DNA from: Candidatus Kaiserbacteria bacterium
GTDB taxonomy: Bacteria > Patescibacteriota > Minisyncoccia > Phycocordibacterales > Phycocordibacteraceae
Length of the DNA: 64,000 nt
Assembly (NCBI GenBank): GCA_963813065.1
Contig: CAWEXP010000009.1
Location: forward strand, 1,931 to 65,930
Reading direction: 5' to 3'
Below are positions 35,517 through 63,067 of this stretch, one piece after another. Within the stretch, counting starts at the first letter, position 1. Each line of letters starts with the position of its first letter. Both the position numbers and the translations under genes were made by a program. A model generated the notes under the pieces. That model was not told the origin of the DNA and made no database searches. It was given only the letters and a program-made list of their open reading frames with translations.

Positions 35517-36050
35517 ATGAAAATACTTGCCATTTCGGGGAGCTTGAGAAAGGACTCGTTTAATAGCGCATTGGTGCGGGCATTGGCGCAATTGGCGCCC
35601 GCGGGCGTGGAGGTTGAGCAGGCAGAGATTGGCAATTTGCCACTCTACAATACCGATCTCGAGGCTGCATTCCCGGCCGAGGCGACGGCGCTGAAGCAGA
35701 AGATAGAATCTGCCGACCGAATCATTTTTGTGACACCGGAGTATAACCGCTCGATTTCTGGAGTGTTGAAGAACGCCATCGACTGGGCGAGCCGCCCGTG
35801 GGGCAAAAATTCTTTTGCCGGCAAGGTGGCACTCATCGCAGGTGTCTCGGTAGGGAAGACGGGCACTGCGCTCGCGCAGGCGCACTTGAAGGACATTTTG
35901 CTCTATCTCGATATGAAAGTGTTGGGGCAACCCGAGCTCTATCTCGGCCCTGCCTCGGCAATCTTCGATGAGCACGGCATGATTAAAGAAGAGTCGACGA
36001 AGGAGTTGCTGAGTAAAGCTATCGCGACGCTGGTCGCTCACGCGGCATAG
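35517..36050 (+). CDS. NAD(P)H-dependent FMN reductase
   Basis: MKILAISGSLRKDSFNSAL...FVTPEYNRSISGVLKNAIDWASRP... Confidence 0.8.
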   Translation: MKILAISGSLRKDSFNSALVRALAQLAPAGVEVEQAEIGNLPLYNTDLEAAFPAEATALKQKIESADRIIFVTPEYNRSISGVLKNAIDWASRPWGKNSFAGKVALIAGVSVGKTGTALAQAHLKDILLYLDMKVLGQPELYLGPASAIFDEHGMIKEESTKELLSKAIATLVAHAA

Positions 36051-36157
36051 TTCCTGCGAACGGTACGCAATTTCTTTGCTAAGAAATTGCTCAGTCCTCA
36101 CGCCGTCGCGTTGCGGAGCCCGTTCTCGGAACTATGCCGTGTTCGCGAGTTACACTG
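36042..36157 (+). ncRNA. copy 1 of a ~115-nt structured repeat (candidate small RNA / 3'-UTR element); overlaps the fre stop codon
   Basis: ~80% identical to 46714-46828. Two hairpins, GCAATTTCTT-TGCT-AAGAAATTGC and ACGC-CGTC-GCGT, are maintained in the other copy by compensatory substitutions. Confidence 0.5.
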
Positions 36158-36180
36158 CGCGATTATGATAAGGTGTAACT

Positions 36181-36648
36181 ATGAATCGCGAACGGGATCT
36201 GCTCTGGTTTTTTGATCTCGCGCTCGTGTTGAAGATCGTCAACGGCGCGCTCGAGATGCTCGGCGCGTTCTTGATACTCGTCGTGCCGCCCATGTTTATT
36301 GTGCGGATTATCGAGATTGCGACCGCTGGTGAACTGGCGAACGATCCTGATGACTTCGTCGCGACGCACCTGCGCTCTGCGGCACAGACGTTCGCTGTCC
36401 ATACGCATTTCCTCATCGCGATTTATCTCATTCTCCACGGCGCCATCAAGATAGCGCTCGTGCTCGGCATCTTCGCGAAGAAACGCATCGCGTATCCGCT
36501 CTTCATGCTGGCGCTCGGCATCTTTGGCAGTTACGAGGCATATCTGGGGATAACGCGGCATGAGAATTTGCTTGGGGTGCTCGCCGTTTTCGACTGCATG
36601 TTGCTGGTCCTCACGCTCTACGAGTATCGTCGCCGTCTGGTATACTAA
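36181..36648 (+). CDS. DUF2127-like integral membrane protein
   Basis: 4-5 hydrophobic helices. The antisense ORF 36163-36687 is rejected. Confidence 0.45.
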   Translation: MNRERDLLWFFDLALVLKIVNGALEMLGAFLILVVPPMFIVRIIEIATAGELANDPDDFVATHLRSAAQTFAVHTHFLIAIYLILHGAIKIALVLGIFAKKRIAYPLFMLALGIFGSYEAYLGITRHENLLGVLAVFDCMLLVLTLYEYRRRLVY

Positions 36649-36674
36649 ACATATTATCCGTAGCATATGTTGAT

Positions 36675-36953
36675 ATGAGAAACGCATGGTTGTGGGTGCT
36701 CGCGGTGCTGGTTCTGCTCGCGCTCGCCGGAGGGTATTGGTATATGCAGATGAGTCAGGGCGCAGGAGCGAACACCGAGCCAGCTACGGCTGTGTCGACC
36801 ACGACACCTGATCAGAGCGCGGCAACGAACGTGACTCCCGCCGCCGCACTTTCGGCGCGTGACAATTCAGATGCGTCGCTCAACACGGACCTAGGCGACA
36901 TTAACAGCCAGATGACCGGTCTCGCCTCTGACTCGCAGGCGGCCGCGCAATAA
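36675..36953 (+). CDS. small exported/anchored protein
   Basis: N-terminal TM/signal, then a low-complexity Ala/Thr/Ser-rich region. Confidence 0.3.
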   Translation: MRNAWLWVLAVLVLLALAGGYWYMQMSQGAGANTEPATAVSTTTPDQSAATNVTPAAALSARDNSDASLNTDLGDINSQMTGLASDSQAAAQ

Positions 36954-36957
36954 TCCT

Positions 36958-37777
36958 ATGAAGCACTTCAATTCTTCGCTCATCGCGAGCATCGTCGCTG
37001 GGCTCGTACTCGCAACGCCTGTCTTTGCGCAGTCGGTCACGGCGACCGCCTCGGTTACCAGTGGCACGATGATGCCCGTCGGTGTCAGCGCACGCGCCGC
37101 GCGTCTCGCCTCCACCACGGCCGCGCGCGCGGTCCTCGCAGAGAGCGCGCTCGCGAAGGCAATCGCAAATGCGAACCAGCAAATCGAGATGCGTGTTGCG
37201 AGCCTCAATCAGCTCGGCACGCGTATCCAAGCGATGGCGCACCTTACCGCCGACGAGAAAACGTCTATCGCTGGCATTATCTCGGGCGACCTCTCCTCGC
37301 TTGGTGATCTGCAAGCCAAGATCGATAGCGACGCGACTTCGAGCGTGAAGGCCGACATTCAATCGATTACCAAGGGCGAGCGCATCTATATGCTCGTCGA
37401 ACCACAGACCAACATTCTCGCGGCCGCCGATCGCGCCGCGTCGATTGGCGACATGCTGACTGCGCTCGCAGGGAAAATCGAGACGCGTTTGAGCGCGACA
37501 CCGAATGCGACGGCATCCTCGCTTCTCGCCGACCTCCAGGCGAAGGTCGCAGATGCCCAGACACAGGCCTCCGCCGCAATCTCTGAGACCTCGACGCCTC
37601 CAGCCGGACAACGGCAATACGACCATCGCCGCGAGCAACACTTCTGCGTTGAAGGATGCGCGGAGCAAAATTAAAACCGCACAAGCCGACTTACAGGCCG
37701 CCGACAAAGATGCGAGCGGCGTCGTGAAGGCGCTCAAGGGTTCTGCCAGTGCCAGTGCAACCACGACCGTACAATAA
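36958..37777 (+). CDS. secreted Ala/Thr-rich protein, frameshift near 37605
   Basis: Signal peptide MKHFNSSLIASIVAGLVLATPVFA. The C-terminus continues in another frame (…QPDNGNTTIAASNTSALKDARSKIKTAQADLQ…). Confidence 0.4.
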
Positions 37778-37831
37778 TTACCAAACAAAAACACCGCGCG
37801 GCCGGAGGCCGCGCGGTGTTTTTCGTGCTCG

Positions 37832-38131
37832 TTATTTCGTGCTCGGTGCACCTGCCGCTGTGTTCGTTACGGTCGGCGGAATCATCTGGGTGCGCATGAC
37901 GCCGGTGTCGCCGGAATACATGACACCGCCGCCCCACCCCTGACTTTGCATCATGCGATAGCCCTCGTGCATACCGCCGCCGATGGTCGCGCGGATTTCG
38001 CCGAACTCGAAGCCGCACCAGAAGATGAAGAGCGCGATGACCACGGCAGTCAGGCCGCGTATCGCGCGGTGGTGATGCCACTGGCACTTCCCGTCGCACT
38101 TCATTCCATTCTCACCGTTGTTCATGTCCAT
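37832..38131 (-). CDS. small Cys/His-containing membrane protein divergent from the sigma factor
   Basis: 99 aa with CDGKCQWHHH and a TM helix. A terminator lies at 37790-37830. Confidence 0.3.
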   Translation of the reverse strand: MDMNNGENGMKCDGKCQWHHHRAIRGLTAVVIALFIFWCGFEFGEIRATIGGGMHEGYRMMQSQGWGGGVMYSGDTGVMRTQMIPPTVTNTAAGAPSTK

Positions 38132-38231
38132 AGGAGTTCAAAAAGGATTAAGGCGAGCTGGCTCGCTTACTCAATACTACCCCATAGACGAATGTTTGTT
38201 TCAAGGATTGCGTAGTAAGATAGGCGGACCT

Positions 38232-38801
38232 ATGCCAGGGGAATTCACCGACGAGCAAATAGTCCGCCGTACGCTCGCCAACAAGGACGAGTTTGCGCTT
38301 CTTATCGAGCGATACGAGGCCAAGTTGAATCGCTATCTCCAGCGCCTCGGCCTCGCTCTGCCCGAGGATAGGGAAGATGTCTTGCAGAACGCGTTCATCA
38401 AGGCCTACAAAAATCTGAACAGCTTCGACCCCGATCTCTCGTTCTCGTCGTGGATCTATCGTATCGCGCACAACGAGGCGATGAGCTTCTTCCGCTCGCG
38501 ACAGGCGCGGCCGCAAGTCACCCTCTCTGAGGATTCGGAAAGTCTGCTTACGGAGCTTCGCGACGATTCAGCGGATACGGCGGCACTCTCGGAGCTCCGG
38601 CTCTCGAGCGCCGAGCTCGCGAAAGCCTTTGCGACGCTTGAACCGAAGTATCGCGATGTGCTGACTCTCCGCTTCTTCGAGGAACGCTCCTACACTGACA
38701 TGTCTGATATCCTACAAGTGCCGGTGGGGACCGTTTCAACCATGATTCATCGGGCCAAGAAAGCGCTCCGCTCTGCACTGCCAAAACATTTCATGCCATG
38801 A
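38232..38801 (+). CDS. ECF-type RNA polymerase sigma factor
   Basis: Regions 2 and 4: ...LQNAFIKAYKNLNSFDP...SSWIYRIAHNEAMSFFR... and ...VLTLRFFEERSYTDMSDILQVPVGTVSTMIHRAKKAL... Confidence 0.8.
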   Translation: MPGEFTDEQIVRRTLANKDEFALLIERYEAKLNRYLQRLGLALPEDREDVLQNAFIKAYKNLNSFDPDLSFSSWIYRIAHNEAMSFFRSRQARPQVTLSEDSESLLTELRDDSADTAALSELRLSSAELAKAFATLEPKYRDVLTLRFFEERSYTDMSDILQVPVGTVSTMIHRAKKALRSALPKHFMP

Positions 38802-39652
38802 CCGACCATTTTCACGAACAGAACATAATTCCCGACCCGCTCGCGCGGCGCGTGCTTGACCGTATCGACGCCGAGAAGGTCGCGCCGCGTCCGCGGTGGG
38901 AATTCGTCGGCGAGAATTATTTGTTCTGGAGCCTCGGCGCGCTCGCGGTGGTGCTCGGCGCATTCGCGTTCTCGGCCGCGCTCTTCGAGGTAACGAACGC
39001 GAGTTGGACATTGTATGCGGCGACGCACTCCAGCTTCATCGCCTTTTTTCTCTCGGTTGCGCCATTCCTCTGGGCCCTCGTGCTCGTGGTCTTCATCGGC
39101 ATCGGCTACGCGAACATTCGCCACACGAAGCGCGGCTATCGTTACTCGCTCGCCGTCATTGCGCTCGGCGCGGTGCTTACCTCGATAACACTCGGCACGG
39201 CGCTCTATGCGAGCGGGTGGGGTGGGGCAGTTGAGGAATCAATCGGCGACCACCCGCCCTTCTATCGACCGATTATGGTTGCAGAGCGCAATTGGTGGGA
39301 GGCGCCGGCACAAGGCGTTCTCGCGGGCGAGGTGCTCTCGGTGGCGAGCGATACTTCCTCGTTCGTGGTGAAAGATTTTTCCGGCACCATTCGCATTATT
39401 GACGCCGACGACCTGCGTGCACCTGACCTGCGGGAGCTTATCGTCGGCGCAACGGTGAGGATTATTGGTGCACCAGCGTCCGCGACGAGCACCGAGCACC
39501 TGTTCCACGCCTGTTTCGTCTTCCCCTGGAATGCGGACCAAGAAGTGGTCGTCCCACCTCCGGCGGGCGAAAGAAGTCCTGCTCCGGAGCGTAGTGATGA
39601 GTGTAAGGGCATCCGCCCTTACGGAGCGCTCCATGCGCTTCATGGAGAATAG
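38798..39652 (+). CDS. putative membrane anti-sigma factor
   Basis: Overlaps the sigma stop (ATGA). Has TM helices and a C-terminal extracytoplasmic domain. Confidence 0.5.
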   Translation: MTDHFHEQNIIPDPLARRVLDRIDAEKVAPRPRWEFVGENYLFWSLGALAVVLGAFAFSAALFEVTNASWTLYAATHSSFIAFFLSVAPFLWALVLVVFIGIGYANIRHTKRGYRYSLAVIALGAVLTSITLGTALYASGWGGAVEESIGDHPPFYRPIMVAERNWWEAPAQGVLAGEVLSVASDTSSFVVKDFSGTIRIIDADDLRAPDLRELIVGATVRIIGAPASATSTEHLFHACFVFPWNADQEVVVPPPAGERSPAPERSDECKGIRPYGALHALHGE

Positions 39653-39729
39653 TTAGGTTTTTACCTTGCTAGGGGCGATGCGCCGTTGCGAGCCGGTGCG
39701 TCGCCCTCTCCGTACCTGCTTTCTTTGCT

Positions 39730-40086
39730 ATGCTTAAATCTATGGTAAAAACGATATCACTCATCTTTGGCGTCATCCTGGCACTCCTCGGACTCCTGGG
39801 GTTCGTCAGTAACCCGCTCATTGGGGTGAACGCCATCTTTGCCACTGATGCGGTGCACAACGGTATCTATCTCCTCGTCGGCCTCGCGCTCCTCGGCGCC
39901 GGACGCTGGGCCAGCCCACGCGCTACGAGCCTCTGGCTCAAGAGCATCGGCATTTTTATATTTCTGCTGGGATTTATTTCGACGAACACCAACGCCGGCT
40001 GGCTCAATATTGCGCTCGGATTTGGCATCTTCTCGGCAAGCTATTGGCGGACTGATTCGGTACCCGTCAACGCGCGTGTGTCTTGA
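39730..40086 (+). CDS. small 4-TM membrane protein (DUF4383-like)
   Basis: 118 aa, hydrophobic. Confidence 0.4.
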   Translation: MLKSMVKTISLIFGVILALLGLLGFVSNPLIGVNAIFATDAVHNGIYLLVGLALLGAGRWASPRATSLWLKSIGIFIFLLGFISTNTNAGWLNIALGFGIFSASYWRTDSVPVNARVS

Positions 40087-40331
40087 GTAGTGCCGCGAAT
40101 TGTTCCTGCACTTTCTGTAATTTCGGCGCAATGATCACCTGGCAGTAGCCCTGGTTCTGGTTTTTCTCGTAGAAGTCGCGGTGGTATGCCTCGGCGGGGT
40201 AGAACTTCGTGAGTGGTGCAACCTCAGTAGCGATGGGCGCGCCCGTTTTCGCCGAAGCGTTGAGGCCGGCAATGAAATTCTCTGCAGAGTGTTTCTGCGC
40301 CTCAGAGGTATAGAGAATCAGCGAGCGATAC
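40082..40331 (-). pseudogene. msrA: msrA 3' half (split by IS30 copy 2)
   Basis: ...YRSLILYTSEAQKHSAENFIAGLNASAKTGAPIATEVAPLTKFYPAEAYHRDFYEKNQNQGYC... resumes directly after the IS end. Confidence 0.8.
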
Positions 40332-41395
40332 CCCGCTCGACGGGCTCAATCCGAACACTCGAATTTCATGCGCCTCGGCGCTTTTTTCGTTTCCGTACCG
40401 CAGCTAATGCTTCCGCCGGAGTTTTGTATTGGAGGCATTTCAGTATCCTCCGGTTCAGCTTGTCCTCGAGCTTTTGTATAAATGCCTTTGAATAGCGAGA
40501 AATGTTTGCGCCTTTCGGTATGTCTTTGCGTATGACGCCGTTTGTATTCTCAACCGTTCCTTTCTCCCAGGAGTGATACGGCCGACAGAAATAGATGCGC
40601 ACCCCCAGAAGAGTGGCGAGTGCCTGATGATCTCGGAACAAAATATCGTTGTCAGTGGTGATGGTGCGGAGCTCGGGGAATCTCTGTTGAATGCGGAGGA
40701 ATGCCCGGTGCACGTTCGCCACTGACACATCGAGAATGCGTTCGATGAACGTGACGCGGAGCTTCCGGTCGACCACCACGAGCAGGATGCCTCTGCCAGT
40801 CTTGCCCGAGACAATGAAGTCAGCCTCGACATCTCCGCTCCTCGAACGAGCGTTGATATGCCTGGGCCGTTTGTCGATGAAGGTTCGCTCTGAAAGAGCC
40901 GCGACTCTCGGGTGATACTTTCTTCGTTTCTGCTTTCGCGCGTTCCGATGCGACTCAATTCTCCGGCCATACACGCTTTTGATGAATCGGTACACGCCGT
41001 CTTTCGAGATGGTCGGCAGACGCTTGGCATACTTCCGGACTCTTCCGGCGATGTTCTCGGGCGATTGGTCGTCATACAACAGCTCTTCCACGAGTGAACG
41101 CAGACCCGCATGCCCGACGATCTTCATGCCTTGATACTTCGCGTACTTTCTTCGTGCATACGCCTTGTGTGCAGCCTTCTGTACATCATACAAACCTCGC
41201 ACTCGATTCCTCTTCAACTCTTCCGAGATGCTGGAAACACTGCGGCCAAGAGCTCGAGCAATCGCACGGAGCGAATACTTCTTGCGCTTCAGTATTGAAA
41301 TCTCAGACCGCTCGCTCGTGCTCAGCTGCTTCCAACGTTTCTTTTTTCATGCACGCACAATACCGCGAGTGTTCGGATTCATATGAGAATGCGCG
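40332..41395 (-). mobile_element. IS30-family insertion sequence, copy 2 (1064 bp; 3-bp TSD GTA), inserted in msrA
   Basis: Identical to copy 1 apart from one base. The flanks ...gagGTA|IS|GTAtcgc reconstruct the msrA codons G-T-E-Y-R-S. Confidence 0.9.
40366..41349 (-). CDS. IS30 family transposase, copy 2 (HTH in +1 frame after an A6 tract; 283-aa DDE ORF intact)
   Basis: The ORF 40366-41217 is intact, including ...TTDNDILFRDHQALATLLGVRIYFCRPYHSWEKGTVENTNGVIRKD... The N-terminal HTH lies upstream in the +1 frame relative to the ATG at 41349. Confidence 0.8.
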
Positions 41396-41679
41396 TACTC
41401 GGTACCCGTGTCGGGGCCCTGGCGATTGACCTGCGTCGCATCATGCGACCCGAAGAAGACCGTGAGCAGATTGGTATAGCTAATCTGGTTGGGGTCGAAC
41501 TCAACTTTGATGACCTCGGCGTGGCCCGTGCGGCCGCTCGCGACCCGTTCGTACGTCGGCGCTTCACTCGTACCGCCCGCGTATCCCGGCTCAACGCTCT
41601 CGATACCTCGCAACATTTTAAAAACAGCTTCTGTGCACCAGAAGCACCCACTCCCGAAAACGGCTGTTTCTGTGTTCAT
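41396..41679 (-). pseudogene. msrA: msrA 5' half (fused to the IS30 terminus)
   Basis: MNTETAVFGSGCFWCTEAVF...GHAEVIKVEFDP...NRQGPDTGTEY, then IS-derived AHSHMNPNTRGIVRA-stop. Confidence 0.8.
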
Positions 41680-41728
41680 GCACGTATCGTAGCAAATAAA
41701 AAACGGGCCCCGTGGGGCCCGTCGAAGG

Positions 41729-42487
41729 TTATGTGTGGTGAGCATCTGGTAGAGATTGCATAAGATCAGCGAAGGAACCGCCATCTTCTTCATCATTCCA
41801 GTCGAGGAGTGCGGCGGCCGTGAGTTGCATGGCCGTGTCGCTCCCGCCGCGCCGGAAGAGCCACTTCACCGCGTCGGACATCTCAATGCCACTGTCATGG
41901 AAAAGGCATCCGATGCCCTGAAAGAAATGACGATCCAGATAGTCGTCCAGGAGTGGACCACCAACAACCGTTTCGATCTTGTCGAACACGCGTCCTTCGG
42001 CATCGTCTCCGAAGCCAGAGGTGAGTGCATGCCGCACTAATTCGTGGCGCATCTCGAGCGAGGATTTTTCTTCGGCAAAGTCGAGTGCGAATTCAAGCGC
42101 GTCACGCCAGTCCCGCATCAATGCTTCATCGAACGCAACGGCATAAATAATCGCGTCGGCATCGAGTTCGGAGAGATACGACGCGAGCTCGAACGCTTTT
42201 GCATCGTCGCCGCCATCGCCGAACACCTCGTAGAATGCCCGTGCGGCTTCCGAGAGTTTGTCCGGGTTGAAGTCATCGCGCGACCAGTCGCCGACTTCCA
42301 TGACCAGCTCTGTGATGCGCTCCTCGAGCATGGCGAAGTGCGCCTGCATTTCGTCGAAATACGCGGTGTCGCTTTTCGAGAGAGGGCCGGCGATTCGTTC
42401 GAGTCGCTGGCGCTGTACCTCAGTCAGGTGATACCGCTGTTTTGCTTCGGCGAGCACGACGGCGTCGAACATGTTTCTATCGAACAT
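41729..42487 (-). CDS. hypothetical acidic protein
   Basis: 252-aa ORF. A terminator lies at 41700-41725 on this strand. Confidence 0.4.
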   Translation of the reverse strand: MFDRNMFDAVVLAEAKQRYHLTEVQRQRLERIAGPLSKSDTAYFDEMQAHFAMLEERITELVMEVGDWSRDDFNPDKLSEAARAFYEVFGDGGDDAKAFELASYLSELDADAIIYAVAFDEALMRDWRDALEFALDFAEEKSSLEMRHELVRHALTSGFGDDAEGRVFDKIETVVGGPLLDDYLDRHFFQGIGCLFHDSGIEMSDAVKWLFRRGGSDTAMQLTAAALLDWNDEEDGGSFADLMQSLPDAHHT

Positions 42488-42565
42488 CGGGGTCTCCTTT
42501 GGAACCGTTCGTTCTGGGCAGGACTATAGCTCAATACCAGCCGACTGTCATGCTAGACTGGTGGC

Positions 42566-42856
42566 ATGTTTGGCGATCGGCCCCGCGTCACCCCTACCGA
42601 ATGGAAGGAGTACGTCCGACCACATTTGAGCAATCAGGGACTTACCGACCACCAGCTCGACCGGCTCGAGAGTCTGTTCGAGCAGAGTTTCCAGGCCAAT
42701 CCCTCAATTCCCGACTGGAAGCCGGGCATCGACCAGGCCGCGCTGGATCAAACCATGCAGTATCTTCGCGCACACAAGGAGGAATCGCTGTTTGACGATC
42801 ATCAGCTCGACCTCGTGCAGGCTGAGCTCTTGAAGTACATCAGTATTGCGACGTAG
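42566..42856 (+). CDS. hypothetical protein
   Basis: 96-aa ORF. Confidence 0.3.
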   Translation: MFGDRPRVTPTEWKEYVRPHLSNQGLTDHQLDRLESLFEQSFQANPSIPDWKPGIDQAALDQTMQYLRAHKEESLFDDHQLDLVQAELLKYISIAT

Positions 42857-43228
42857 TTATTTCTTCTCTTCTTTTTCGAAGTCGAGACAGACCGAATTGA
42901 TGCAGTAACGTTTGCCGCCCTTCTCGCGCGGACCGTCATCGAAGACATGGCCCAGGTGCCCACCACAATTCTTGCAGTAGACTTCGGTGCGCATGCCGTC
43001 GTGGTCGAGGCGCGTGCCGACGTGCGCGGCGACCGCCGGGTCAGTGAATGAAGGCCAGCCCGTGCCAGAATCGAATTTTGCTGAAGAATCGAAAAGTACC
43101 GTACCGCATTGCTTACAGCGATACACGCCCGCCTCATGATTGTCGAGGTATGCGCCCGAGAAGGGCGCCTCCGTCCCGCCCTCGACCAGCACTGCGCGCT
43201 CTTCTGGGGTGAGTTCTTTCATGTCCAA
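42857..43228 (-). CDS. msrB: peptide-methionine (R)-S-oxide reductase MsrB
   Basis: CxxC...CxxC zinc site and the RYCINS active site. Confidence 0.85.
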   Translation of the reverse strand: MDMKELTPEERAVLVEGGTEAPFSGAYLDNHEAGVYRCKQCGTVLFDSSAKFDSGTGWPSFTDPAVAAHVGTRLDHDGMRTEVYCKNCGGHLGHVFDDGPREKGGKRYCINSVCLDFEKEEKK

Positions 43229-43273
43229 ATTATATCATTTGCGCCTTAAGCGCTCGGCGGGTAGGATAGAGGT

Positions 43274-43708
43274 ATGAAACGAATTGGTGTGGTGCTGATA
43301 CTCGTGTGCGCATTCCTCGGGCTCGCCGATTCTGTCTATCTCACCCAGAACGAAGTCGCGGGGACGCCGCTGCTCTGCAATATCCAACATCTCACCGGCT
43401 GTAACATCGTCGCGCAGAGTGCCTATTCTTATATGTTCGGCGTTCCGACCGCCGAGTACGGACTTATCTTCTACGGTCTGCTCTTCGTGCTCGCGGCCGT
43501 GGAGTTGGCCGTCTTCAACTGGCTCTTGCGTCGTGTTCTGCAGGTGATGGCGATTGGCGGCGTCACCTTCTCGCTCTACAGCGTTCTCCTGCAATTTTTC
43601 GTCATTCACGCACTCTGTATCTACTGCCTCGCCTCGGCCGTACTCGCGCTTCTCGTTTTCATTTTCGCCTGCTTCATCGAGCCGCTCCCTCCGCCACAGC
43701 GAACCTAG
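43274..43708 (+). CDS. vitamin K epoxide reductase (VKOR) family protein
   Basis: 4 TM with a CIYC active-site motif. Confidence 0.6.
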   Translation: MKRIGVVLILVCAFLGLADSVYLTQNEVAGTPLLCNIQHLTGCNIVAQSAYSYMFGVPTAEYGLIFYGLLFVLAAVELAVFNWLLRRVLQVMAIGGVTFSLYSVLLQFFVIHALCIYCLASAVLALLVFIFACFIEPLPPPQRT

Positions 43709-43710
43709 CC

Positions 43711-44880
43711 ATGCGCCTTTCATTACTCATCCTACTCGCCGCGCTTGCACTGCCGGGGAGCGCTTTTGCGGCGACTGCGCACGAGGCGACCTTCCTCGCG
43801 GGGCGTTCGCTCTTCATCGCGAGCTCGTCGCCCGCAAATGAATACCTTGCAGGCGCGACCATCACCGTCACGGGAGCAACCAAGGGTGATCTCACTGCGC
43901 TCGGTGGCACCAACACCATCGCCGCGCCGGTCGGTGGTGACCTGCTCGTGCTCGGCGGCTCCGCAACACTCCGTTCAACAGTCGCGGGTGATGTGCGCGC
44001 AATTGCGGGTACATTCTCTGCCGAGCAATCAATCGCGGGCGACCTGGTGGTGCTCGCGGGTTCGGTGCAGGCGGCGGGGCACGTTGGCGGGAGTATCTTC
44101 ATCGCCGGCTCAACCGTGTCGCTCACGGGCGGCGCAGGAGGGCCAGTGACCATTTACGGCAATACCGTCACGCTCGGTGGAACTTTTGCTGGTGATGTCA
44201 CCATCGTTTCGAGTGGTGCAGTCTCGCTCGAGTCCGGCACGCACATCAAGGGCAATTTCTCGTACTCAGCATCAGAGGCGGCGCAGGTGCCTGCTGATGC
44301 GACGATTAGTGGAACGATTACCTACCAGGGCTCCTCGAATCTCCCGACTTCGAGCGAGGCCCATGCGCTGGCGCTCGCGAGTGTCGGCGTTTTCCTCCTC
44401 ACCCGCATCATCGCGTCGCTCATTCTCGCGGGTCTCTTGGCCGGCCTCTTCCCGCGACTCGCGATTGACCTCACGCGCCGCGCCGCGCGGGGCAGTGCGC
44501 GTTCGATTCTCCTCACCACGCTCCTCGGCTTTGCCGTACTCGTCGCAACACCCGCGCTGATCCTCCTGTTCTCGATCAGTTTCGTCGGATTCGGCGTCGC
44601 ACTTCTCGTGCTCATTGTCTACGCACTCCTCGTTCTTTTGGCACTAGTCTACGCCGGCATACTGATTGGTGCGCTCGGTGCGTGGCGCTTCGCACGTCGC
44701 GAGACGGTCATCTGGCGTGACGGTGTCCTCGGGATGCTCGTGCTTTCGCTCCTCCTCCTCATCCCCATTCTGGGTGTTGTCCTCCTCGCATTCCTCGCAA
44801 CCTTCGCGGCCGGGGCACTCGTCCTACAATTTTTCCACGTCGCTTTTCCCCAAGAACCAGAAACGGCCGAATTGCTATAA
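43711..44880 (+). CDS. secreted repetitive (bactofilin-like GD-repeat) protein with C-terminal multi-TM domain
   Basis: Signal peptide, then repeated ...GGD..V.G... units, then hydrophobic C-terminal helices. Confidence 0.4.
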   Translation: MRLSLLILLAALALPGSAFAATAHEATFLAGRSLFIASSSPANEYLAGATITVTGATKGDLTALGGTNTIAAPVGGDLLVLGGSATLRSTVAGDVRAIAGTFSAEQSIAGDLVVLAGSVQAAGHVGGSIFIAGSTVSLTGGAGGPVTIYGNTVTLGGTFAGDVTIVSSGAVSLESGTHIKGNFSYSASEAAQVPADATISGTITYQGSSNLPTSSEAHALALASVGVFLLTRIIASLILAGLLAGLFPRLAIDLTRRAARGSARSILLTTLLGFAVLVATPALILLFSISFVGFGVALLVLIVYALLVLLALVYAGILIGALGAWRFARRETVIWRDGVLGMLVLSLLLLIPILGVVLLAFLATFAAGALVLQFFHVAFPQEPETAELL

Positions 44881-44887
44881 TTCCACT

Positions 44888-45358
44888 ATGACTATTCCAT
44901 CCGTTGGTACCGCCGCTCCTGCGTTTACGCTCCCTGACCAGGATGGCAAAGAGCACACGCTTGCCGATTATCGGGGAAAATGGGTTTTGCTCTATTTCTA
45001 CCCCAAGGACGATACTCCTGGTTGCACCATAGAAGCCTGCACCATCCGTGATCAGTTCAAAGATTTCAAAACGATTGGCGCGGTCGTGCTCGGCGTCTCG
45101 ACTGACTCGGTCGCGAGCCACAAGAAGTTCGCGAGCGCCTACGAGCTCCCCTTCACTCTCCTCGCAGACGTACACAAAGAAGTCGTGGGGAAGTACGGCG
45201 TCTTCGGCGAGAAGAAGTTTATGGGCCGCACCTACATGGGCACCGCACGCACGTCATTTCTGATTGATCCCAAAGGCACCGTCGCAAAAGTGTACGAGCA
45301 CGTGAAGCCGGAGAAACACGCCGCCGAGGTCATTGCGGATTTGAAAGCATTGTCATGA
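44888..45358 (+). CDS. bcp: thiol peroxidase / peroxiredoxin Bcp
   Basis: ...VLLYFYPKDDTPGCTIEAC... Confidence 0.8.
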   Translation: MTIPSVGTAAPAFTLPDQDGKEHTLADYRGKWVLLYFYPKDDTPGCTIEACTIRDQFKDFKTIGAVVLGVSTDSVASHKKFASAYELPFTLLADVHKEVVGKYGVFGEKKFMGRTYMGTARTSFLIDPKGTVAKVYEHVKPEKHAAEVIADLKALS

Positions 45359-46020
45359 CGCTATCGCTCGCAGAGCGGAAAGCACGCCCTACTTCGCTAA
45401 AGCTACGTAGGGCAAGGGCGAAGAAAATTGTCGCATACCTGAAGAAGACGTACCCGGTGCCCAAGAGCGAATTGCGGTACTCGACGCCCCTGCAATTCCT
45501 CGTGGCGGTGATGCTCTCGGCGCAATGTACCGACAAGACGGTGAATCGCGTCACGGAAAAACTCTGGAAGAAATACAAAACGGCGAAAGACTTTGCAAAG
45601 GCCAAGCCCGCTGTTTTCCAGAAAGAAATTTCGAGTATCACTTTTTTCCGCAACAAGACGAAAGCGATTATCAGTACCGCCAAAATCATTCAAAATGATT
45701 TTGGCGGTACGGTTCCACATACTGAAGCCGAGCTCGTCACTCTGCCTGGTGTCGGCTACAAGACCGCGCACGTCGTGCTCGGCGAGCTCTATGGCATCTG
45801 GGAGGGCATCGCGACCGACACGCACGTCAAGCGATTCGCGAAACGTTTTGACCTAACCGACAACGACGACCTTAAAAAGATTTCCAAAGACTTGGAGGTG
45901 CTTATACCGAAAAAAGACTGGAAATACGTCAACAACGGCCTTGTCCTCTACGGCCGCTACGTCTGTCCGGCCCGCCCGCATGATTGCTCTAGGCATCCGC
46001 TGACGCTGGCGGTACGATAG
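45355..46020 (+). CDS. nth: endonuclease III (HhH-GPD, 4Fe-4S)
   Basis: ...LVAVMLSAQCTDKTVN...LPGVGYKTAHVVL...DTHVKR...C.ARPHDC... It contains a 28-bp repeat at 45387-45414 in its N-terminal tail. Confidence 0.8.
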   Translation: MTLSLAERKARPTSLKLRRARAKKIVAYLKKTYPVPKSELRYSTPLQFLVAVMLSAQCTDKTVNRVTEKLWKKYKTAKDFAKAKPAVFQKEISSITFFRNKTKAIISTAKIIQNDFGGTVPHTEAELVTLPGVGYKTAHVVLGELYGIWEGIATDTHVKRFAKRFDLTDNDDLKKISKDLEVLIPKKDWKYVNNGLVLYGRYVCPARPHDCSRHPLTLAVR

Positions 46021-46024
46021 CGGC

Positions 46025-46709
46025 ATGCAAAAGGTCGCCGTATTCGACATCGACGGAACCGTCTTCCGCTCCTCGCTTCTGATTGAACTGGTCGAGCGGC
46101 TGGTGAAAGAAGGTGTGTTCCCACCCGAGACGCGTGCCGCGTATGAGGTCGAGCGCGTGCGTTGGCTCGACCGGAAGGGCGACTACCCGAGCTATATCAA
46201 TAAGGTCGTACAAGTTTTTGCAAAACAACTGAAAGGCGTGCCCTACGAGACGGTCGCGGACATTGCGGGCGAGGTGATTGAAGAGCAGAAGGACCGCGTC
46301 TATCGCTACACCCGCGACCTGATTCGCGAAGTGAAAAAGAAAAAATATTTCCTGCTCGCCATCTCGCACTCGCCCAAGTTTATTGCCGATGGCTTCTGTC
46401 ACGAGCAAGGGTTCGACAAGGTCTACGGCACCTTCTACTCGACCGGCCCCTCGGGCAACTTCACCGGCCTGATGGAGGATGAAGCGTTAATAAAAAATAA
46501 AGCGGCGGTACTCACGCGCGCGGTGCGGAAGGAGAGCCTGACACTCGAAGGCTCGATTGGCGTTGGTGACACCGAGAGCGACATCGGTATGCTCGATCTC
46601 GTCGAGCGTCCGATTTGTTTCAATCCGAATCAAGAACTCTACACGCATGCGAAGTCGTCGCGGATGGGAAGTGGTGGTGGAACGAAAAGATGTTATCTAC
46701 CAAATCTGA
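46025..46709 (+). CDS. HAD-superfamily phosphatase, frameshift near 46660
   Basis: FDIDGTVF DxDxT motif. The C-terminus continues in another frame (...RRGWEVVVERKDVIYQI-stop at 46707-46709). Confidence 0.55.
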
Positions 46710-47685
46710 GAAGCTGCGGCATATTTCTCGAAGGGTACGCGATTTTTCTGCTGAAAAATCGCTCAGTCCTCGTGCCAGTCGCACTGCGGAGCCCCTTCTC
46801 GCAACATGCCGCACCTTCTCGAACACTGTCTGGAGATTTTGGCGCGCACAGGGCCGTCATGATTTGCCGTGGAGGAAGACCAAAGACCCGTACCGAATTC
46901 TGGTGTCAGAAGTGATGCTCCAACAGACCCAAGTCGAGCGCGTGGTGCCGTTTTATCACCATTTCATAAAACAGTTCCCGACGGCGAAAAAGTTGGCGCG
47001 AGCACCGCTCGCAGATGTGTTGAAAAGTTGGCAAGGGCTCGGTTACAATCGTCGCGCGAAGATGTTGCACGAGGCGGCGCAAGAATTATCGAGGTTAAAC
47101 CTCGATATAACAAGGTCGAACCTTGTTGCGACGCTGGAAAAATTGCCTGGGGTAGGGCCGTACACGGCGCGCGCGGTGGCGGCGTTTGCCTACAATCAGG
47201 ACGTCGTTTTTGTTGAGACGAATATCCGGACGGCGATTTTGCACCATTTTTTTCCACGCGAGGCAGAAATGTCCCCGGCTCAGGGTGCTCCGGCCGCTAG
47301 GCCAATTCAACCCTTCGCCAAGGACATTTTTGCCTCGCGCGTTGACGACGCGCAGATTTCAACAGTCCTCGAAAAACTTTTGCCGAAAGGGAAGTCGCGC
47401 GAATGGTACAGCGCGCTGATGGACTATGGTGCACATTTAAAAAAGTCCGGTATACAAGTAAATGCAAAAAGTTCGCATTATATAAAACAATCGCGGTTTT
47501 CTGGCTCGAAGAGGGAAGCGCGTGGCGCGATCTTGAAGGAGCTGGCGCATGGCTCGCGGAGTGAGTCGCGCGTACTCGGGCTTCTCGGCCCCGACCGCGT
47601 CCCGCAGATGAGAGAAGCGCTCGCGGCGCTCCTCGCCGAGCAGTTGGTACAAAAAAACGGCAAGGTCTTCACCTTGCCGCGTTGA
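46690..47685 (+). CDS. A/G-specific adenine glycosylase-like (MutY / HhH-GPD) protein; start uncertain
   Basis: ...LPWRKTKDPYRILVSEVMLQQTQVERVVPFYHHFIKQFPT...LGYNRRAKMLHEAAQ...LPGVGPYTARAV... The ORF as read spans the repeat element. The true start may be downstream of it. Confidence 0.6.
   Translation: MLSTKSEKLRHISRRVRDFSAEKSLSPRASRTAEPLLATCRTFSNTVWRFWRAQGRHDLPWRKTKDPYRILVSEVMLQQTQVERVVPFYHHFIKQFPTAKKLARAPLADVLKSWQGLGYNRRAKMLHEAAQELSRLNLDITRSNLVATLEKLPGVGPYTARAVAAFAYNQDVVFVETNIRTAILHHFFPREAEMSPAQGAPAARPIQPFAKDIFASRVDDAQISTVLEKLLPKGKSREWYSALMDYGAHLKKSGIQVNAKSSHYIKQSRFSGSKREARGAILKELAHGSRSESRVLGLLGPDRVPQMREALAALLAEQLVQKNGKVFTLPR
46714..46828 (+). ncRNA. copy 2 of the ~115-nt structured repeat, 3' of the HAD gene
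   Basis: GCGATTTTTC-TGCT-GAAAAATCGC and GTGC-CAGTC-GCAC hairpins, with covarying pairs relative to copy 1. Confidence 0.5.
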
Positions 47686-59578: not shown

Positions 59579-59667
59579 GGAGGGGTCGCATAGAGGCCTA
59601 GTGCGGCGGGTTGCTAACTCGCTATACGGGTTAAACCGTATCGAGGGTTCGAATCCCTCCCCCTCCG
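59579..59667 (+). tRNA. tRNA-Ser (anticodon GCU), CCA not encoded
   Basis: Acceptor GGAGGGG/CCCCTCC. Anticodon loop TTGCTAA. Long variable arm TATACGGGTTAAACCGTATC. T-arm GAGGG-TTCGAAT-CCCTC. Confidence 0.85.
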
Positions 59668-62404: not shown

Positions 62405-63067
62405 TTAGTGCGCCCAGGCAATTGCGAGGACATTTTGTGCTCCCGCAGATTTGAGCGCAGAACACGCCGAGGCGAGTGTCGCGCCGGTGGTAACGACGTC
62501 GTCGCAGACAATGTAGGTATGCTCGGCCCCACTTCGCTCTTCGAGCCTTGTCGGGCATTGGAAGGCGCCGCGCATGTTGCTCAAGCGTTCTCGGCGGGGG
62601 AGCGAGACTTGGGATGTGGTTTCTCTTGTGCGCACTAACAAATTGGGGCTCGTGATTATTTTAACGTCTGTTGTCCCTACTTCGCTAAAGCTACGTAGGG
62701 CACGGCGCGTCACTTCTTCGACCTGATTGAATCCGCGCTCACGTCGCCGCTCTTTCCCTAGTGGCACCGGCACGAGTACGATGTTGGGTTTCGTAAACCC
62801 TACATTCTCGCTTACGAGCTCATGCAGATATTCGGCGAGTGCCGAAGCGAGAAGCATAAATGCTTTCTCGTTGCCGTGATATTTTGCCTCGTGGATTGCC
62901 GCGCGGACGGAATCGTCGGGGAAGGGTAGGAGTGCGGTTACGATGAGGCCGCCCCCGCCGACGATTTCCGGCGCGAGGAGTGCGAGGAAGTCGTCGGGCG
63001 AGCAATCGCGCACTCTTTTTTCATCGGCGCGGGTGGGGAAAAGCAGTTCGAACAGGCGAGCGAGCAT
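62405..63067 (-). CDS. comF: ComF-family phosphoribosyltransferase-like competence protein
   Basis: ...RGFNQVEE... and the PRTase motif YIVCDDVVTTGATL. It contains the 28-bp repeat at 62675-62702. Confidence 0.75.
   Translation of the reverse strand: MLARLFELLFPTRADEKRVRDCSPDDFLALLAPEIVGGGGLIVTALLPFPDDSVRAAIHEAKYHGNEKAFMLLASALAEYLHELVSENVGFTKPNIVLVPVPLGKERRRERGFNQVEEVTRRALRSFSEVGTTDVKIITSPNLLVRTRETTSQVSLPRRERLSNMRGAFQCPTRLEERSGAEHTYIVCDDVVTTGATLASACSALKSAGAQNVLAIAWAH

What the first reader, a model, noticed from the sequence alone, without database searches (positions are those of the whole stretch)
36042..46828. ~115-nt repeat (two copies) with hairpins preserved by compensatory substitutions: candidate structured RNA or MITE-like element
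36042-36157 and 46714-46828 are ~80% identical and co-oriented. Each lies within 25 nt downstream of a + strand gene, and copy 1 supplies fre's TAG. Hairpin 1 is GCAATTTCTT/AAGAAATTGC in copy 1 and GCGATTTTTC/GAAAAATCGC in copy 2. Three positions change on one arm and are matched by changes on the other. Hairpin 2 is ACGC-cgtc-GCGT versus GTGC-cagtc-GCAC, again fully compensatory. The shared single-stranded stretches GCTCAGTCCTC and TGCGGAGCCC are invariant. Covariation of this kind is a hallmark of a selected RNA secondary structure. Unpaired stretches seem unusually conserved for a simple terminator.
Basis: seen in the sequence. Interest (0 to 1): 0.85.

Follow-up and report, generated by a model that had tools for sequence, protein, structure and literature searches.

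The report
In-frame palindromic mobile repeat of CPR bacteria
The two ~110-nt repeats are real copies of an undescribed palindromic repeat family of Paceibacteria (candidate phyla radiation) that sits between genes and also in-frame inside essential genes, much like the "protein-coding palindromes" of Rickettsia, so its compensatory changes do not by themselves show a functional RNA.

Summary
Each copy (36040-36142 and 46708-46820) folds into a three-way junction.

The family is absent from Rfam. An exact-pattern scan found it in 34 loci of Paceibacterota, Kaiserbacteria, Adlerbacteria and related MAGs. In those loci the core is near-invariant, though that is partly forced by the search pattern. 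The outer arms differ completely between copies yet stay paired.

About half of the copies lie in-frame inside conserved genes with the ORF kept open. Hosts include DnaE, a class I tRNA synthetase, TsaD, RecG, ParB, an M50 peptidase, a SpoU methylase and ApbE. Window copy 2 is a 111-nt in-frame insertion in the 5' end of mutY. Copy 1 is a ~99-nt insertion in the last codons of an FMN reductase gene.

Orthologous sites in related genomes are empty, filled, inverted or reduced to a core-less palindrome. This points to a mobile, DNA-level palindromic element, closest to Rickettsia RPEs. Its architecture is reversed relative to a MITE: conserved centre, variable arms.

A selected RNA remains possible but is unproven.

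The parts
36040..36142 (+). The better-folding 'RC' polarity is the minus strand. Relative to orthologous spacers the inserted block is about 36042-36140 (~99 nt).
   Evidence: Sequence. Fold -62 kcal/mol, z -6.1. CM 99.5 bits at 36033-36149 on the minus strand; this copy was in the model's seed alignment. The FMN reductase-DUF2127 spacers in L056 and L058 lack it, and the native C-terminus plus stop seen in L074 (CGC GTT GCG TAG TTA CAA) survives after the element as GTT CGC GAG TTA CAC at 36141 onward.
36040..36063 (+). Copy 1, 5' arm of the outer stem. It contains the codons GCG GCA TAG that now end the FMN reductase ORF.
   Evidence: MFE structure; ORF 35517-36050; PF03358.
36067..36090 (+). 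Copy 1, hairpin 1 (10 bp, loop TGCT).
   Evidence: Covariation at 6 of 10 pairs across 27 family members.
36095..36117 (+). Copy 1, hairpin 2 domain (TCC...GGA closing ACGC-cgtc-GCGT), flanked by the conserved junction strands GCTCAGTCCTC and TGCGGAGCCC.
   Evidence: All 4 pairs of hairpin 2 show double changes in the family.
36120..36142 (+). Copy 1, 3' arm of the outer stem.
46708..46820 (+). Copy 2, whole palindromic element. The inserted block relative to empty orthologous sites is 46710-46820 (111 nt = 37 codons). It is translated in-frame (FWD frame 3, ...VRDFSAEKSLSPRASRTAEP...) within the 5' end of mutY.
   Evidence: Sequence. Fold z -4.9, minus strand z -7.3. CM 105.1 bits; this copy was in the model's seed alignment. 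Translation. Empty sites L112, L100 and L062 read MSYTSFRNTVWRYYRVHGRH across the junction.
46739..46762 (+). Copy 2, hairpin 1 (GCGATTTTTC tgct GAAAAATCGC).
46767..46790 (+). Copy 2, hairpin 2 domain (GTGC-cagtc-GCAC).
35517..36050 (+). Host gene of copy 1: NADPH-dependent FMN reductase. Its last two codons and stop come from the element.
   Evidence: PF03358, E 3e-45. Comparison with L074, L044 and L048.
46690..47685 (+). Host gene of copy 2: a MutY-like HhH-GPD glycosylase. Its conserved ATG overlaps the end of the HAD gene, and the element follows codon 6-8.
   Evidence: PF00730; translation; orthologous starts in L112, L100 and L062.
46025..46709 (+). HAD-family hydrolase upstream of copy 2. 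The conserved C-terminus RGWEVVVERKDVIYQI* is in the +1 frame, which implies a 1-nt insertion near 46650-46662.
   Evidence: PF12710 on aa 5-190. Nucleotide comparison with L112.

Best explanation
The two repeats are copies of a non-autonomous, mobile palindromic DNA element family of Paceibacteria (CPR).

**Anatomy.** Each element is about 100-145 nt. It has a central three-way-junction core (hairpin 1, hairpin 2 and conserved junction strands). Two long complementary arms close the core. The arms are part of the element but diverge quickly.

**Where it sits.** Copies occupy intergenic spacers, gene ends and internal loops of conserved proteins.
- Inside genes, only copies whose length is a multiple of three and whose frame has no stop codon persist.
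- Those copies are simply translated as a 30-50 residue hydrophilic insert.
- This is the same situation as the Rickettsia palindromic elements.

**What is shown.**
- The structure and its covariation.
- Multi-copy, lineage-restricted distribution.
- In-frame occupancy of at least 11 different host genes.
- Presence/absence polymorphism at three orthologous sites.
- Whole-element inversion at one site, and a core-less perfect palindrome at the same site.
- Strand asymmetry of wobble and purine-purine mismatches.

**What is inferred.**
- The conserved core is the recognition module for an unidentified trans-acting enzyme. That enzyme would act on a single-stranded fold of the 'RC' polarity (ssDNA, or possibly RNA).
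- Arm complementarity is kept by a requirement for the hairpin, by templated quasi-palindrome correction during replication, or by both. This would also explain why arms sometimes extend into host flanking sequence.
For: **Family and structure.**
- 34 of 35 pattern hits are CPR MAGs, several per genome.
- The core is conserved while the arms are unrelated between copies but paired: 658 Watson-Crick pairs out of 729 aligned arm positions.
- 38 of 44 pairs carry compensatory changes, with 0 of 500 shuffles reaching the observed values.

**In-frame genic copies.**
- The ORF stays open across the element in DnaE (L006, L033, L034, L037, L038, L119, L120), a class I aaRS (L004) and TsaD (L008).
- The same holds for the M50 peptidase (L002), SpoU methylase (L009), SAM methyltransferase (L013), ParB (L020), RecG (L029), ApbE (L028) and window mutY.
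- Hairpin-1 covariation changes the peptide drastically (RFFSRKIA versus QIPSKESV). Selection is therefore on the nucleic acid, not the peptide.

**Turnover at orthologous sites.**
- In the DnaE loop, many close homologues carry only 13 aa (GSDFTVVGEKKDA). Others carry 44-63 aa element-derived inserts in three different frames, or 26-28 aa remnants.
- L036 is empty whereas L006 and L037 carry +102 nt.
- The HAD/mutY junction is empty in L112, L100 and L062. It is filled in the window and, by a divergent family member, in L061. L050 holds a degenerate copy.
- The FMN reductase-DUF2127 spacer is empty in L056 and L058.

**DNA-level rearrangements.**
- The L119 insert is the reverse complement of the L120 insert at the same site, arms included.
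- L121 has a perfect 22-bp core-less palindrome at that site.

**Lineage restriction.** The model found only three more hits, all weak, in the roughly 640 kb of Nth-syntenic Paceibacteria metagenome contigs L039-L118.

**Not a terminator or known RNA.** No T-tract, no promoter-like site on the folding strand, no Rfam family.

**Precedent.** RPEs are ~150 bp and about half are in-frame in unrelated genes (PMC10969869).
Against: - No transposase or other mobilising enzyme was identified.
- The only IS in the window is an IS30-family element, and its terminal repeats are unrelated to the arms.
- No consistent target-site duplication or target motif emerged from the three filled/empty comparisons.
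- The conserved-centre, variable-arm architecture is the reverse of a transposase-recognised MITE.
- Junction strands stay conserved in orthologous copies whose arms have diverged (DnaE set; L018, L021 and L030). That looks like in-situ purifying selection, which a purely selfish element does not predict. However, most copies were ascertained with a pattern that demanded those junction strands.
- The G.U and purine-purine strand asymmetry (33 versus 10; 83 versus 19) would also fit a functional RNA.
- Recurrent occupancy of the same sites could reflect in-situ evolution of one old insertion rather than repeated insertion.
Confidence: 0.6

Rival explanations
1. A functional structured RNA. This could be a cis-acting mRNA element (stability, RNase III processing, translational pausing or protein binding) or an independently transcribed small RNA. 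Its three-way-junction core would be selected for host benefit, and the outer stem would be a sequence-free closing helix (P1).
For: - Strong covariation in all three helices, with conserved unpaired junction strands.
- G.U wobbles and tandem G.A loops concentrate on one polarity, in both genic and non-genic copies.
- That polarity is the sense strand in about 12 of 14 genic loci.
- The RC polarity folds better in most copies.
- Orthologous copies keep the core while the arms change by compensatory substitutions.
Against: - Intergenic copies lie in either orientation. Five of six loci with co-directional neighbours place the folding strand antisense, including window copy 1. Window copy 2, which is genic, also has it antisense.
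- No promoter-like site lies on that strand in the window, and there is no terminator tail.
- The element flips in situ with both alleles retained.
- It is absent from most related genomes and from orthologous sites, so it is dispensable.
- No Rfam family matches, even at E<=10.
- G.T and G.A are also the most tolerated mismatches in ssDNA hairpins (own knowledge), so the asymmetry does not single out RNA.
Confidence: 0.2
2. A host-beneficial DNA structural signal. The element would be a strand-specific single-stranded DNA fold or cruciform used in replication, priming or recombination, in the manner of ssi/PAS signals or attC-like recombination sites. It would be dispersed around the chromosome rather than being selfish.
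For: - Strand-asymmetric fold independent of the transcription direction.
- Conserved core.
- Both window copies share the same orientation on the chromosome.
- DNA-level inversion and palindrome dynamics.
Against: - Patchy distribution and dispensability at orthologous sites.
- Placing such a signal inside essential coding regions would be an odd solution.
- No associated integrase or primase context was seen.
- Orientation relative to replication could not be tested on these fragments.
Confidence: 0.1
3. An intron-like, bypassed or otherwise removed intervening sequence. The outer stem would bring the ends together so that the element is excised from the mRNA (for example endonuclease plus ligase) or skipped by the ribosome.
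For: - The outer stem juxtaposes the two ends of the insert.
- Insertions lie in conserved essential genes at conserved positions, as with inteins and introns.
- There is a strong sense-orientation bias in genes.
Against: - Every genic copy examined (at least 17) keeps the host frame, with length a multiple of three and no stop through about 50 nt of otherwise unconstrained arm sequence. A removed sequence would not need this.
- No gene was found split by a copy.
- Degenerate derivatives remain in-frame.
- No ribozyme or intron family matches.
Confidence: 0.04

Closest known systems
Rickettsia palindromic elements (RPE; Ogata et al. 2000, 2002, as summarised in PMC10969869 and PMC3184786)
   Same: - Palindromic repeats of about 100-150 nt, multi-copy in a small reduced genome.
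- Roughly half the copies are inserted in-frame in unrelated housekeeping genes and are read through as an extra peptide.
- Other copies are intergenic or fused to gene ends.
- No known transposase.
   Different: - Different lineage (Paceibacteria/CPR, not Rickettsia). I could not compare it with RPE sequences, because none are held in the tools.
- Here the conserved part is a central three-way junction and the arms are hypervariable.
- The encoded peptide is not conserved across hairpin variants.
- In-situ inversion and core-less remnants are documented.
Classical bacterial MITEs (for example Correia/NEMIS, RUP, Nezha)
   Same: Small, non-autonomous and multi-copy. They fold into long stem-loops, show empty and filled orthologous sites, and occasionally fuse with ORFs.
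   Different: MITEs are defined by terminal inverted repeats conserved among copies and matching a parent IS, plus target-site duplications. Here the termini differ between copies, no parent IS was found, and target-site duplications are unclear.
REP / REPIN elements mobilised by RAYT (Y1 HUH) transposases, and IS200/IS605-derived palindrome-associated elements
   Same: Hairpin-forming repeats whose activity depends on a strand-specific single-stranded fold rather than on double-stranded termini. No target-site duplication is expected.
   Different: REP units are 20-40 nt with a conserved GTAG or CGTC head and are extragenic. No RAYT or TnpA gene was seen in the sequence available. The three-way-junction core has no counterpart.
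Integron attC sites
   Same: Structure is conserved while sequence is variable. Only one strand folds into the recombinogenic hairpin, and the sites lie immediately downstream of ORFs.
   Different: attC conserves its ends (R''/R' boxes) and varies in the centre, which is the opposite of this element. There is no cassette array or IntI context, and attC sites are not found in-frame inside genes.
Quasi-palindrome templated mutagenesis (intramolecular template switching; own knowledge of work by Ripley and by Lovett)
   Same: It would keep two arms complementary without selection. It can also extend a palindrome into flanking DNA, as seen at the DnaE site (host TCCGGCGC..GGC mirrored at the far end) and at window copy 2 (host GAGAAG mirrored by CTTCTC).
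   Different: This is a mutational process, not an element family. It does not explain the conserved unpaired junction strands.

Membership tests
MITE | Terminal inverted repeats conserved between copies, matching those of an autonomous IS | tested here: not met
   Arms are complementary within a copy but unrelated between copies, even within one genome (STC_91: L005, L006 x2, L021). The only IS in the window is an IS30-family element with the TIR AATCCGAACACTCG, which is unrelated.
MITE | Target-site duplication flanking each copy | tested here: inconclusive
   Three filled/empty comparisons were made. Window copy 2 is compatible with a 2-3 nt GAA duplication. The DnaE site and copy 1 show none that is clear. 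A recurrent CG(A/G)AG near both arm ends may be an internal loop rather than a duplication.
MITE | Small, non-coding for a transposase, multi-copy, with empty and filled orthologous sites | tested here: met
Rickettsia palindromic elements (RPE-like 'protein-coding palindromes') | Palindromic repeat of about 100-150 bp inserted in-frame in unrelated protein-coding genes, with the ORF preserved | tested here: met
   At least 11 different host genes were confirmed by Pfam or homology, and all are read through.
Rickettsia palindromic elements (RPE-like 'protein-coding palindromes') | Sequence homology to an RPE family; occurrence in Rickettsia | not testable with these tools
   No RPE reference sequences are available in the tools. 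The hosts here are CPR MAGs, so at most this is an analogue, not a member.
Rickettsia palindromic elements (RPE-like 'protein-coding palindromes') | Each family encodes a conserved peptide | tested here: not met
   Only the junction-encoded parts (GAPQ.D..RTE, YP) are constant. The hairpin-encoded residues change with covariation, and three different frames are used.
Known structured RNA family (Rfam 15) | Match to a curated covariance model | tested here: not met
   There is no hit at gathering thresholds in the window apart from one tRNA. At E<=10, only sub-threshold matches (10-19 bits against gathering scores of 40-80) to three miRNA-precursor models and one sRNA model (sbcD) appear.
Intrinsic (Rho-independent) terminator | GC-rich hairpin followed by a T-tract, oriented with the upstream gene | tested here: not met
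   No terminator-like site at either copy. Copies occur inside ORFs and in both orientations.
REP / REPIN-RAYT | 20-40 nt extragenic palindromes with a GTAG/CGTC head, with a RAYT gene in the genome | not tested
   The size and intragenic location do not fit by inspection. I did not screen for a conserved GTAG/CGTC head. RAYT presence could not be checked on fragmentary loci.
Integron attC | Conserved R''/R' end boxes, variable centre, cassette/IntI context | tested here: not met
   The conservation pattern is inverted: centre conserved, ends variable. The sequences were not scanned for R''/R' boxes. No integrase is next to the window copies among the ORFs scanned.
Self-splicing intron, self-cleaving ribozyme or translational bypass element | Removed from the message, so no need for frame or ORF continuity; catalytic core motifs | tested here: not met
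   Frame and ORF are preserved in all genic copies. No ribozyme or intron model matches. Actual removal was not testable without RNA data.

The most novel reading that the evidence does not exclude
The conserved three-way-junction core could be an active nucleic-acid module. It might be a recognition or catalytic structure on a single strand of fixed polarity that drives a previously undescribed hairpin-mediated mobility system in CPR bacteria. Under this reading, insertion, in-situ inversion and templated arm synthesis that copies host flanks would all stem from it. Alternatively, it could be a dispersed regulatory RNA embedded in the mRNAs of essential genes (dnaE, ileS, tsaD, recG, parB) that coordinates them.
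Probability: 0.2. Interest if true: 0.85.

Novelty: new variant of a known kind. Interest (0 to 1): 0.62.

Why it matters
- **A second case of protein-coding palindromes.** In-frame palindromic repeats inside housekeeping genes are best documented in Rickettsia; the title of Ogata et al. 2002, cited in PMC10969869, calls them unique to that genus. A structurally distinct, independent case in the ultra-small genomes of CPR bacteria suggests a general outcome of genome reduction combined with palindromic selfish DNA.
- **A caution for covariation-based RNA discovery.** In palindromic repeats, compensatory changes can arise from DNA-level hairpin maintenance.
- **Consequences for annotation of CPR MAGs.** The element causes spurious ORF extensions, displaced starts and stops, and 30-50 aa "CPR-specific inserts" in DnaE, tRNA synthetases and other proteins.
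- **A tractable system.** The unusual conserved-centre, variable-arm design and the observed in-situ inversion give a way to search for a new mobilisation mechanism.

Tried and rejected
1. **Rfam.** Searches at gathering thresholds and at E<=10 found no family. Only sub-threshold matches (three miRNA-precursor models and sbcD) appeared.
2. **Peptide-profile search.** A 45-column profile of the inserted peptide gave only 3 tiny hits against 5.8 billion proteins, too few to list host proteins.
3. **Viral contig scan.** The core pattern gave 3 hits that are one identical, unrelated coding sequence. They lack hairpin 1 and the covariance model does not hit them, so they are chance matches.
4. **L023 (Polaromonas).** This pattern hit is a chance match. 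It scores 18 bits and lacks the family architecture.
5. **Arms as inverted duplications of host flanks.** I considered that this might explain all arm variability, and rejected it as a general rule. The two window copies share related arms (GCGGCATA...), so arms travel with the element. Host-flank mirroring is seen only at the outermost 6-11 nt of two copies.
6. **Hammerhead, twister, hairpin or pistol ribozyme cores.** By inspection there is no CUGANGA/GAAA arrangement or similar, and there are no Rfam hits.
7. **IS30 element as the autonomous partner.** Its terminal repeats are unrelated to the arms. A shared 7-mer, CGAACAC, next to both copies is within chance expectation.
8. **Target motif or target-site duplication.** No consistent result from three site comparisons.
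9. **Literature.** Four full-text searches found no description of such elements in CPR/Patescibacteria.

Full report
**1. The observation**

Copy 1 (about 36040-36142) and copy 2 (about 46708-46820) are co-oriented on the + strand. They are 77-81% identical.

In each copy a long helix encloses both hairpins, so each copy folds into a three-way junction:
- Copy 1: 36040-36063 pairs with 36120-36142.
- Copy 2: 46708-46735 pairs with 46793-46820.
- The + strand folds give -62.0 kcal/mol (z -6.1) and -51.9 kcal/mol (z -4.9).
- The minus strand folds as well or better, at z -6.5 and -7.3.

Rfam 15 has no matching family at gathering thresholds or at E<=10.

**2. A family in CPR bacteria**

An exact-pattern scan of 185,579 species genomes used GCTCAGTCCTC-N6-20-TGCGGAGCCC.
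- It returned 35 loci. Of these, 34 come from Paceibacterota, Kaiserbacteria, Adlerbacteria, Nomurabacteria and Minisyncoccia, from Patescibacteria-group or unclassified MAGs, or from MAGs labelled Saccharibacteria.
- There are often several loci per genome.
- The remaining locus, from Polaromonas, is a chance hit.

The aligned copies share a near-invariant core, GGGTAC-hairpin1-GCTCAGTCCTC-hairpin2-TGCGGAGCCCC. The 20-30 nt arms on either side have unrelated sequences in different copies, even within one genome. Within each copy they are almost perfectly complementary: 658 Watson-Crick pairs out of 729 aligned positions.

I tested the three helices on a 27-sequence alignment:
- 78% of cells are paired.
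- 38 of 44 pairs show changes on both sides.
- No shuffle out of 500 reached the observed values.
- Sliding the partners dropped pairing to about 45%.

A covariance model built from this alignment recovered all known copies and found three more in the same loci. It found only the two copies in the 64-kb window; those two were in its seed alignment.

Much of the junction-strand invariance is imposed by the search pattern. Copies found without that pattern have variant cores but the same architecture:
- CCCCGCAG in L006 and L003.
- CUCUCGCAG and GAGAGCGAG in L119 and L120.
- CGCUGACUCUC in L061.

**3. Many copies are inside genes, in-frame**

About half of the copies lie inside long ORFs of conserved proteins, and the ORF is never broken. 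Hosts confirmed by Pfam or by homology are:
- DnaE, in seven genomes
- a class I tRNA synthetase
- TsaD
- an M50 (RseP-like) peptidase
- a SpoU methylase
- a SAM methyltransferase
- ParB
- RecG
- ApbE

It does so in one frame, giving GAPQRDGARTEQ(F/I)SSKK(I/S)AYPE.

Other frames also occur:
- A second RC frame appears in L008 and among the DnaE variants.
- One forward frame (...VRDFSAEKSLSPRA...) appears in L013, L119, L061 and window copy 2.
- The fourth open frame is hydrophobic (GYAIFLLKNRSVL...). It occurs only in ORF extensions that appear spurious: L019 and L032 and the frameshifted window HAD ORF.

Hairpin covariation rewrites the peptide (RFFSRKIA versus QIPSKESV). The constraint is therefore on nucleic-acid pairing, not on the protein.

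Frame and stop-freedom are preserved through about 50 nt of otherwise free arm sequence in every genic copy. This indicates translation. It argues against an intron or a bypassed gap.

**4. The two window copies in this light**

*Copy 2.*
- Orthologous HAD-mutY junctions in L112, L100 and L062 are empty. There mutY starts at an ATG inside the last codons of the HAD gene and reads MSYTSFRNTVWRYYRVHGRH.
- The window has the same ATG at 46690. A 111-nt block (46710-46820, 37 codons) follows directly after the HAD stop. Then comes TFSNTVWRFWRAQGRHDLPWR.
- Copy 2 is therefore an in-frame insertion in the 5' end of mutY.
- L061 carries a divergent family member at the same place, also in-frame. L050 holds a degenerate copy. 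L086 and L051 hold a different ~200-nt multi-hairpin palindrome.

*Copy 1.*
- The FMN reductase-DUF2127 spacers in L056 and L058 lack the element.
- The native C-terminal codons and stop, seen in L074 as CGC GTT GCG TAG TTA CAA, are still recognisable after the element at 36141 onward (GTT CGC GAG TTA CAC).
- Copy 1 is therefore a ~99-nt insertion into the last codons of the gene, and it now provides Ala-Ala-stop.

*Signals.* Neither copy has a terminator T-tract. No promoter-like site lies on the minus strand near either copy.

**5. Turnover and DNA-level dynamics**

A protein search with the DnaE region gave an unbiased view of one site, between FTVV and IRFGLSSIK.
- Many close homologues have the 13-aa state GSDFTVVGEKKDA.
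- Others carry 44-63 aa inserts that are recognisably element-derived: intact, expanded in hairpin 2, frame-shifted or degenerate.
- Some carry 26-28 aa remnants.

At nucleotide level:
- L036 is empty where L006 and L037 carry +102 nt.
- The whole L119 insert, arms included, is the reverse complement of the L120 insert at the same site. The arms are asymmetric, so the inversion is visible. Both alleles keep dnaE open.
- L121 has a perfect 22-bp palindrome with a 4-nt loop and no core at that site.

In the roughly 640 kb of Nth-syntenic contigs from related Paceibacteria (L039-L118), the model found only three new hits, all weak. The element is therefore lineage-restricted and dispensable.

Together these results show insertion or loss, inversion and core deletion. 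This is the behaviour of mobile palindromic DNA.

**6. Which strand folds?**

Mismatches in the helices are strongly asymmetric between the strands.
- On the RC polarity there are 33 G.U-type pairs, against 10 on the other strand.
- There are 83 purine-purine oppositions against 19 pyrimidine-pyrimidine. Examples are the recurrent GGA/GGA and GAA/GAA internal loops.
- The asymmetry holds in genic and in non-genic copies alike.
- The cells counted are not independent events, because the copies share ancestry.

The RC polarity also folds better in L119, where it is antisense to dnaE.

Intergenic copies occur in either orientation relative to their neighbours:
- Five loci with co-directional neighbours have the RC strand antisense, and one has it sense.
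- Four loci lie between convergent genes.
- One locus lies between divergent genes.

The folded molecule therefore has a fixed polarity that does not track host transcription. This fits a single-stranded DNA intermediate at least as well as an RNA.

**7. Unexplained details**

- The outermost part of one arm is sometimes complementary to host flanking sequence.
  - At the DnaE site, the host TCCGGCGC..GGC, which is also present in the empty allele L036, is mirrored at the far end of the insert.
  - At window copy 2, the host (T)GAGAAG is mirrored by CTTCTC.
- This would fit palindrome extension by intramolecular template switching. That process would also keep the arms complementary without selection.
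- It is not general, because the two window copies share related inner arms (GCGGCATA...).
- No consistent target-site duplication or target motif emerged.
- No mobilising enzyme was found. The IS30-family element at 40348-41379 has unrelated terminal repeats.

**8. Comparison with known systems**

- The closest analogue is the Rickettsia palindromic element. It is ~150 bp, and about half of its copies are in-frame in unrelated genes (PMC10969869; PMC3184786).
- This family works like an RPE but is not a member of that family. The lineage differs, the peptide is not conserved, and the architecture is conserved-centre with variable arms.
- It fails the MITE definition, because its terminal inverted repeats are not conserved between copies.
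- It fails the attC, terminator, intron/ribozyme and Rfam tests.
- REP/RAYT membership was not formally tested; the size and intragenic location do not fit by inspection.
- Four full-text searches found no description of such elements in CPR bacteria.

**9. Verdict**

The finding is real and worthwhile, but its headline inference needs revision. Covariation here demonstrates a conserved hairpin architecture of a mobile palindromic element that is translated when it sits in genes. It does not demonstrate a functional RNA.

I rate it a new variant of a known kind, with moderate to high interest. About 20% of the probability remains on a truly new mechanism or a functional RNA.

Noticed in passing
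window 46640-46709: The HAD hydrolase gene appears frameshifted. Relative to L112 (AAG CGT CGC GGC TGG), the window has one extra base (AAG TCG TCG CGG A TGG). The conserved C-terminus RGWEVVVERKDVIYQI* is therefore in the +1 frame, and the mechanical ORF 46025-46915 reads on through the element into mutY. This could be an assembly error, a pseudogene or a real shift.
   Followed up: partly
window 40348-41379: An IS30-family insertion sequence lies between the two copies. The transposase ORF is 40366-41217 on the minus strand (NF033563, 176 bits). It has perfect 14-bp terminal inverted repeats, AATCCGAACACTCG, at 40348-40361 and 41366-41379. It is unrelated to the element arms. A 7-mer, CGAACAC, also occurs next to both copies, probably by chance.
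   Followed up: partly
window 45387-45417 and 62675-62705: A second, shorter palindromic repeat occurs twice at 97% identity (CCCTACTTCGCTAAAGCTACGTAGGGCA). The first copy lies inside the N-terminal coding region of the endonuclease III gene (45355-46020). Many Nth homologues align only from about residue 18. This may be another in-frame palindromic insertion family.
   Followed up: no
L086 about 2575-2790 and L051 about 2308-2520: A different ~200-nt multi-hairpin palindromic element occupies the same HAD/mutY junction as window copy 2. Its outer pairs are GAAGCCAGCC...GGCTGGCTTC, with nested hairpins. L114 has yet another ~150-nt filler at that junction. The junction looks like a hot spot for palindromic DNA.
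   Followed up: no
L121 about 975-1035: A perfect 22-bp palindrome with a 4-nt loop and no core (CCGACTTGGAGGTTGAACCTCC AAGT GGAGGTTCAACCTCCAAGTCGG) is translated inside dnaE at the element's usual site. Its perfection suggests recent formation or active arm-to-arm correction.
   Followed up: partly
L017 414-586 and L033 990-1117: Two copies carry extra sequence inside the core. L017 has a 57-nt insert between the junction strand and hairpin 1. In L033, hairpin 1 is preceded by an additional GC-rich hairpin (ATCCGCCAGCTGGCGGAT). P0005 and P0024 show expansions of hairpin 2 in DnaE. These may be nested insertions or helix expansions.
   Followed up: no
L004 135-3557 (minus strand): The class I tRNA synthetase that hosts an element also contains a histidine-phosphatase (PF00300) domain inserted at aa 470-636, splitting the catalytic domain. 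This is an unusual fusion or insertion.
   Followed up: no
L037 1-1358: In this Hainich contig, the dnaE reading frame that carries the element is called as only 328 aa. It starts about 115 nt upstream of the insertion and has an unrelated minus-strand gene upstream. This could be a split or truncated dnaE, or a misassembly.
   Followed up: no
window 59579-59667: The only Rfam hit in the window is an 89-nt tRNA with a long variable arm (51 bits).
   Followed up: no
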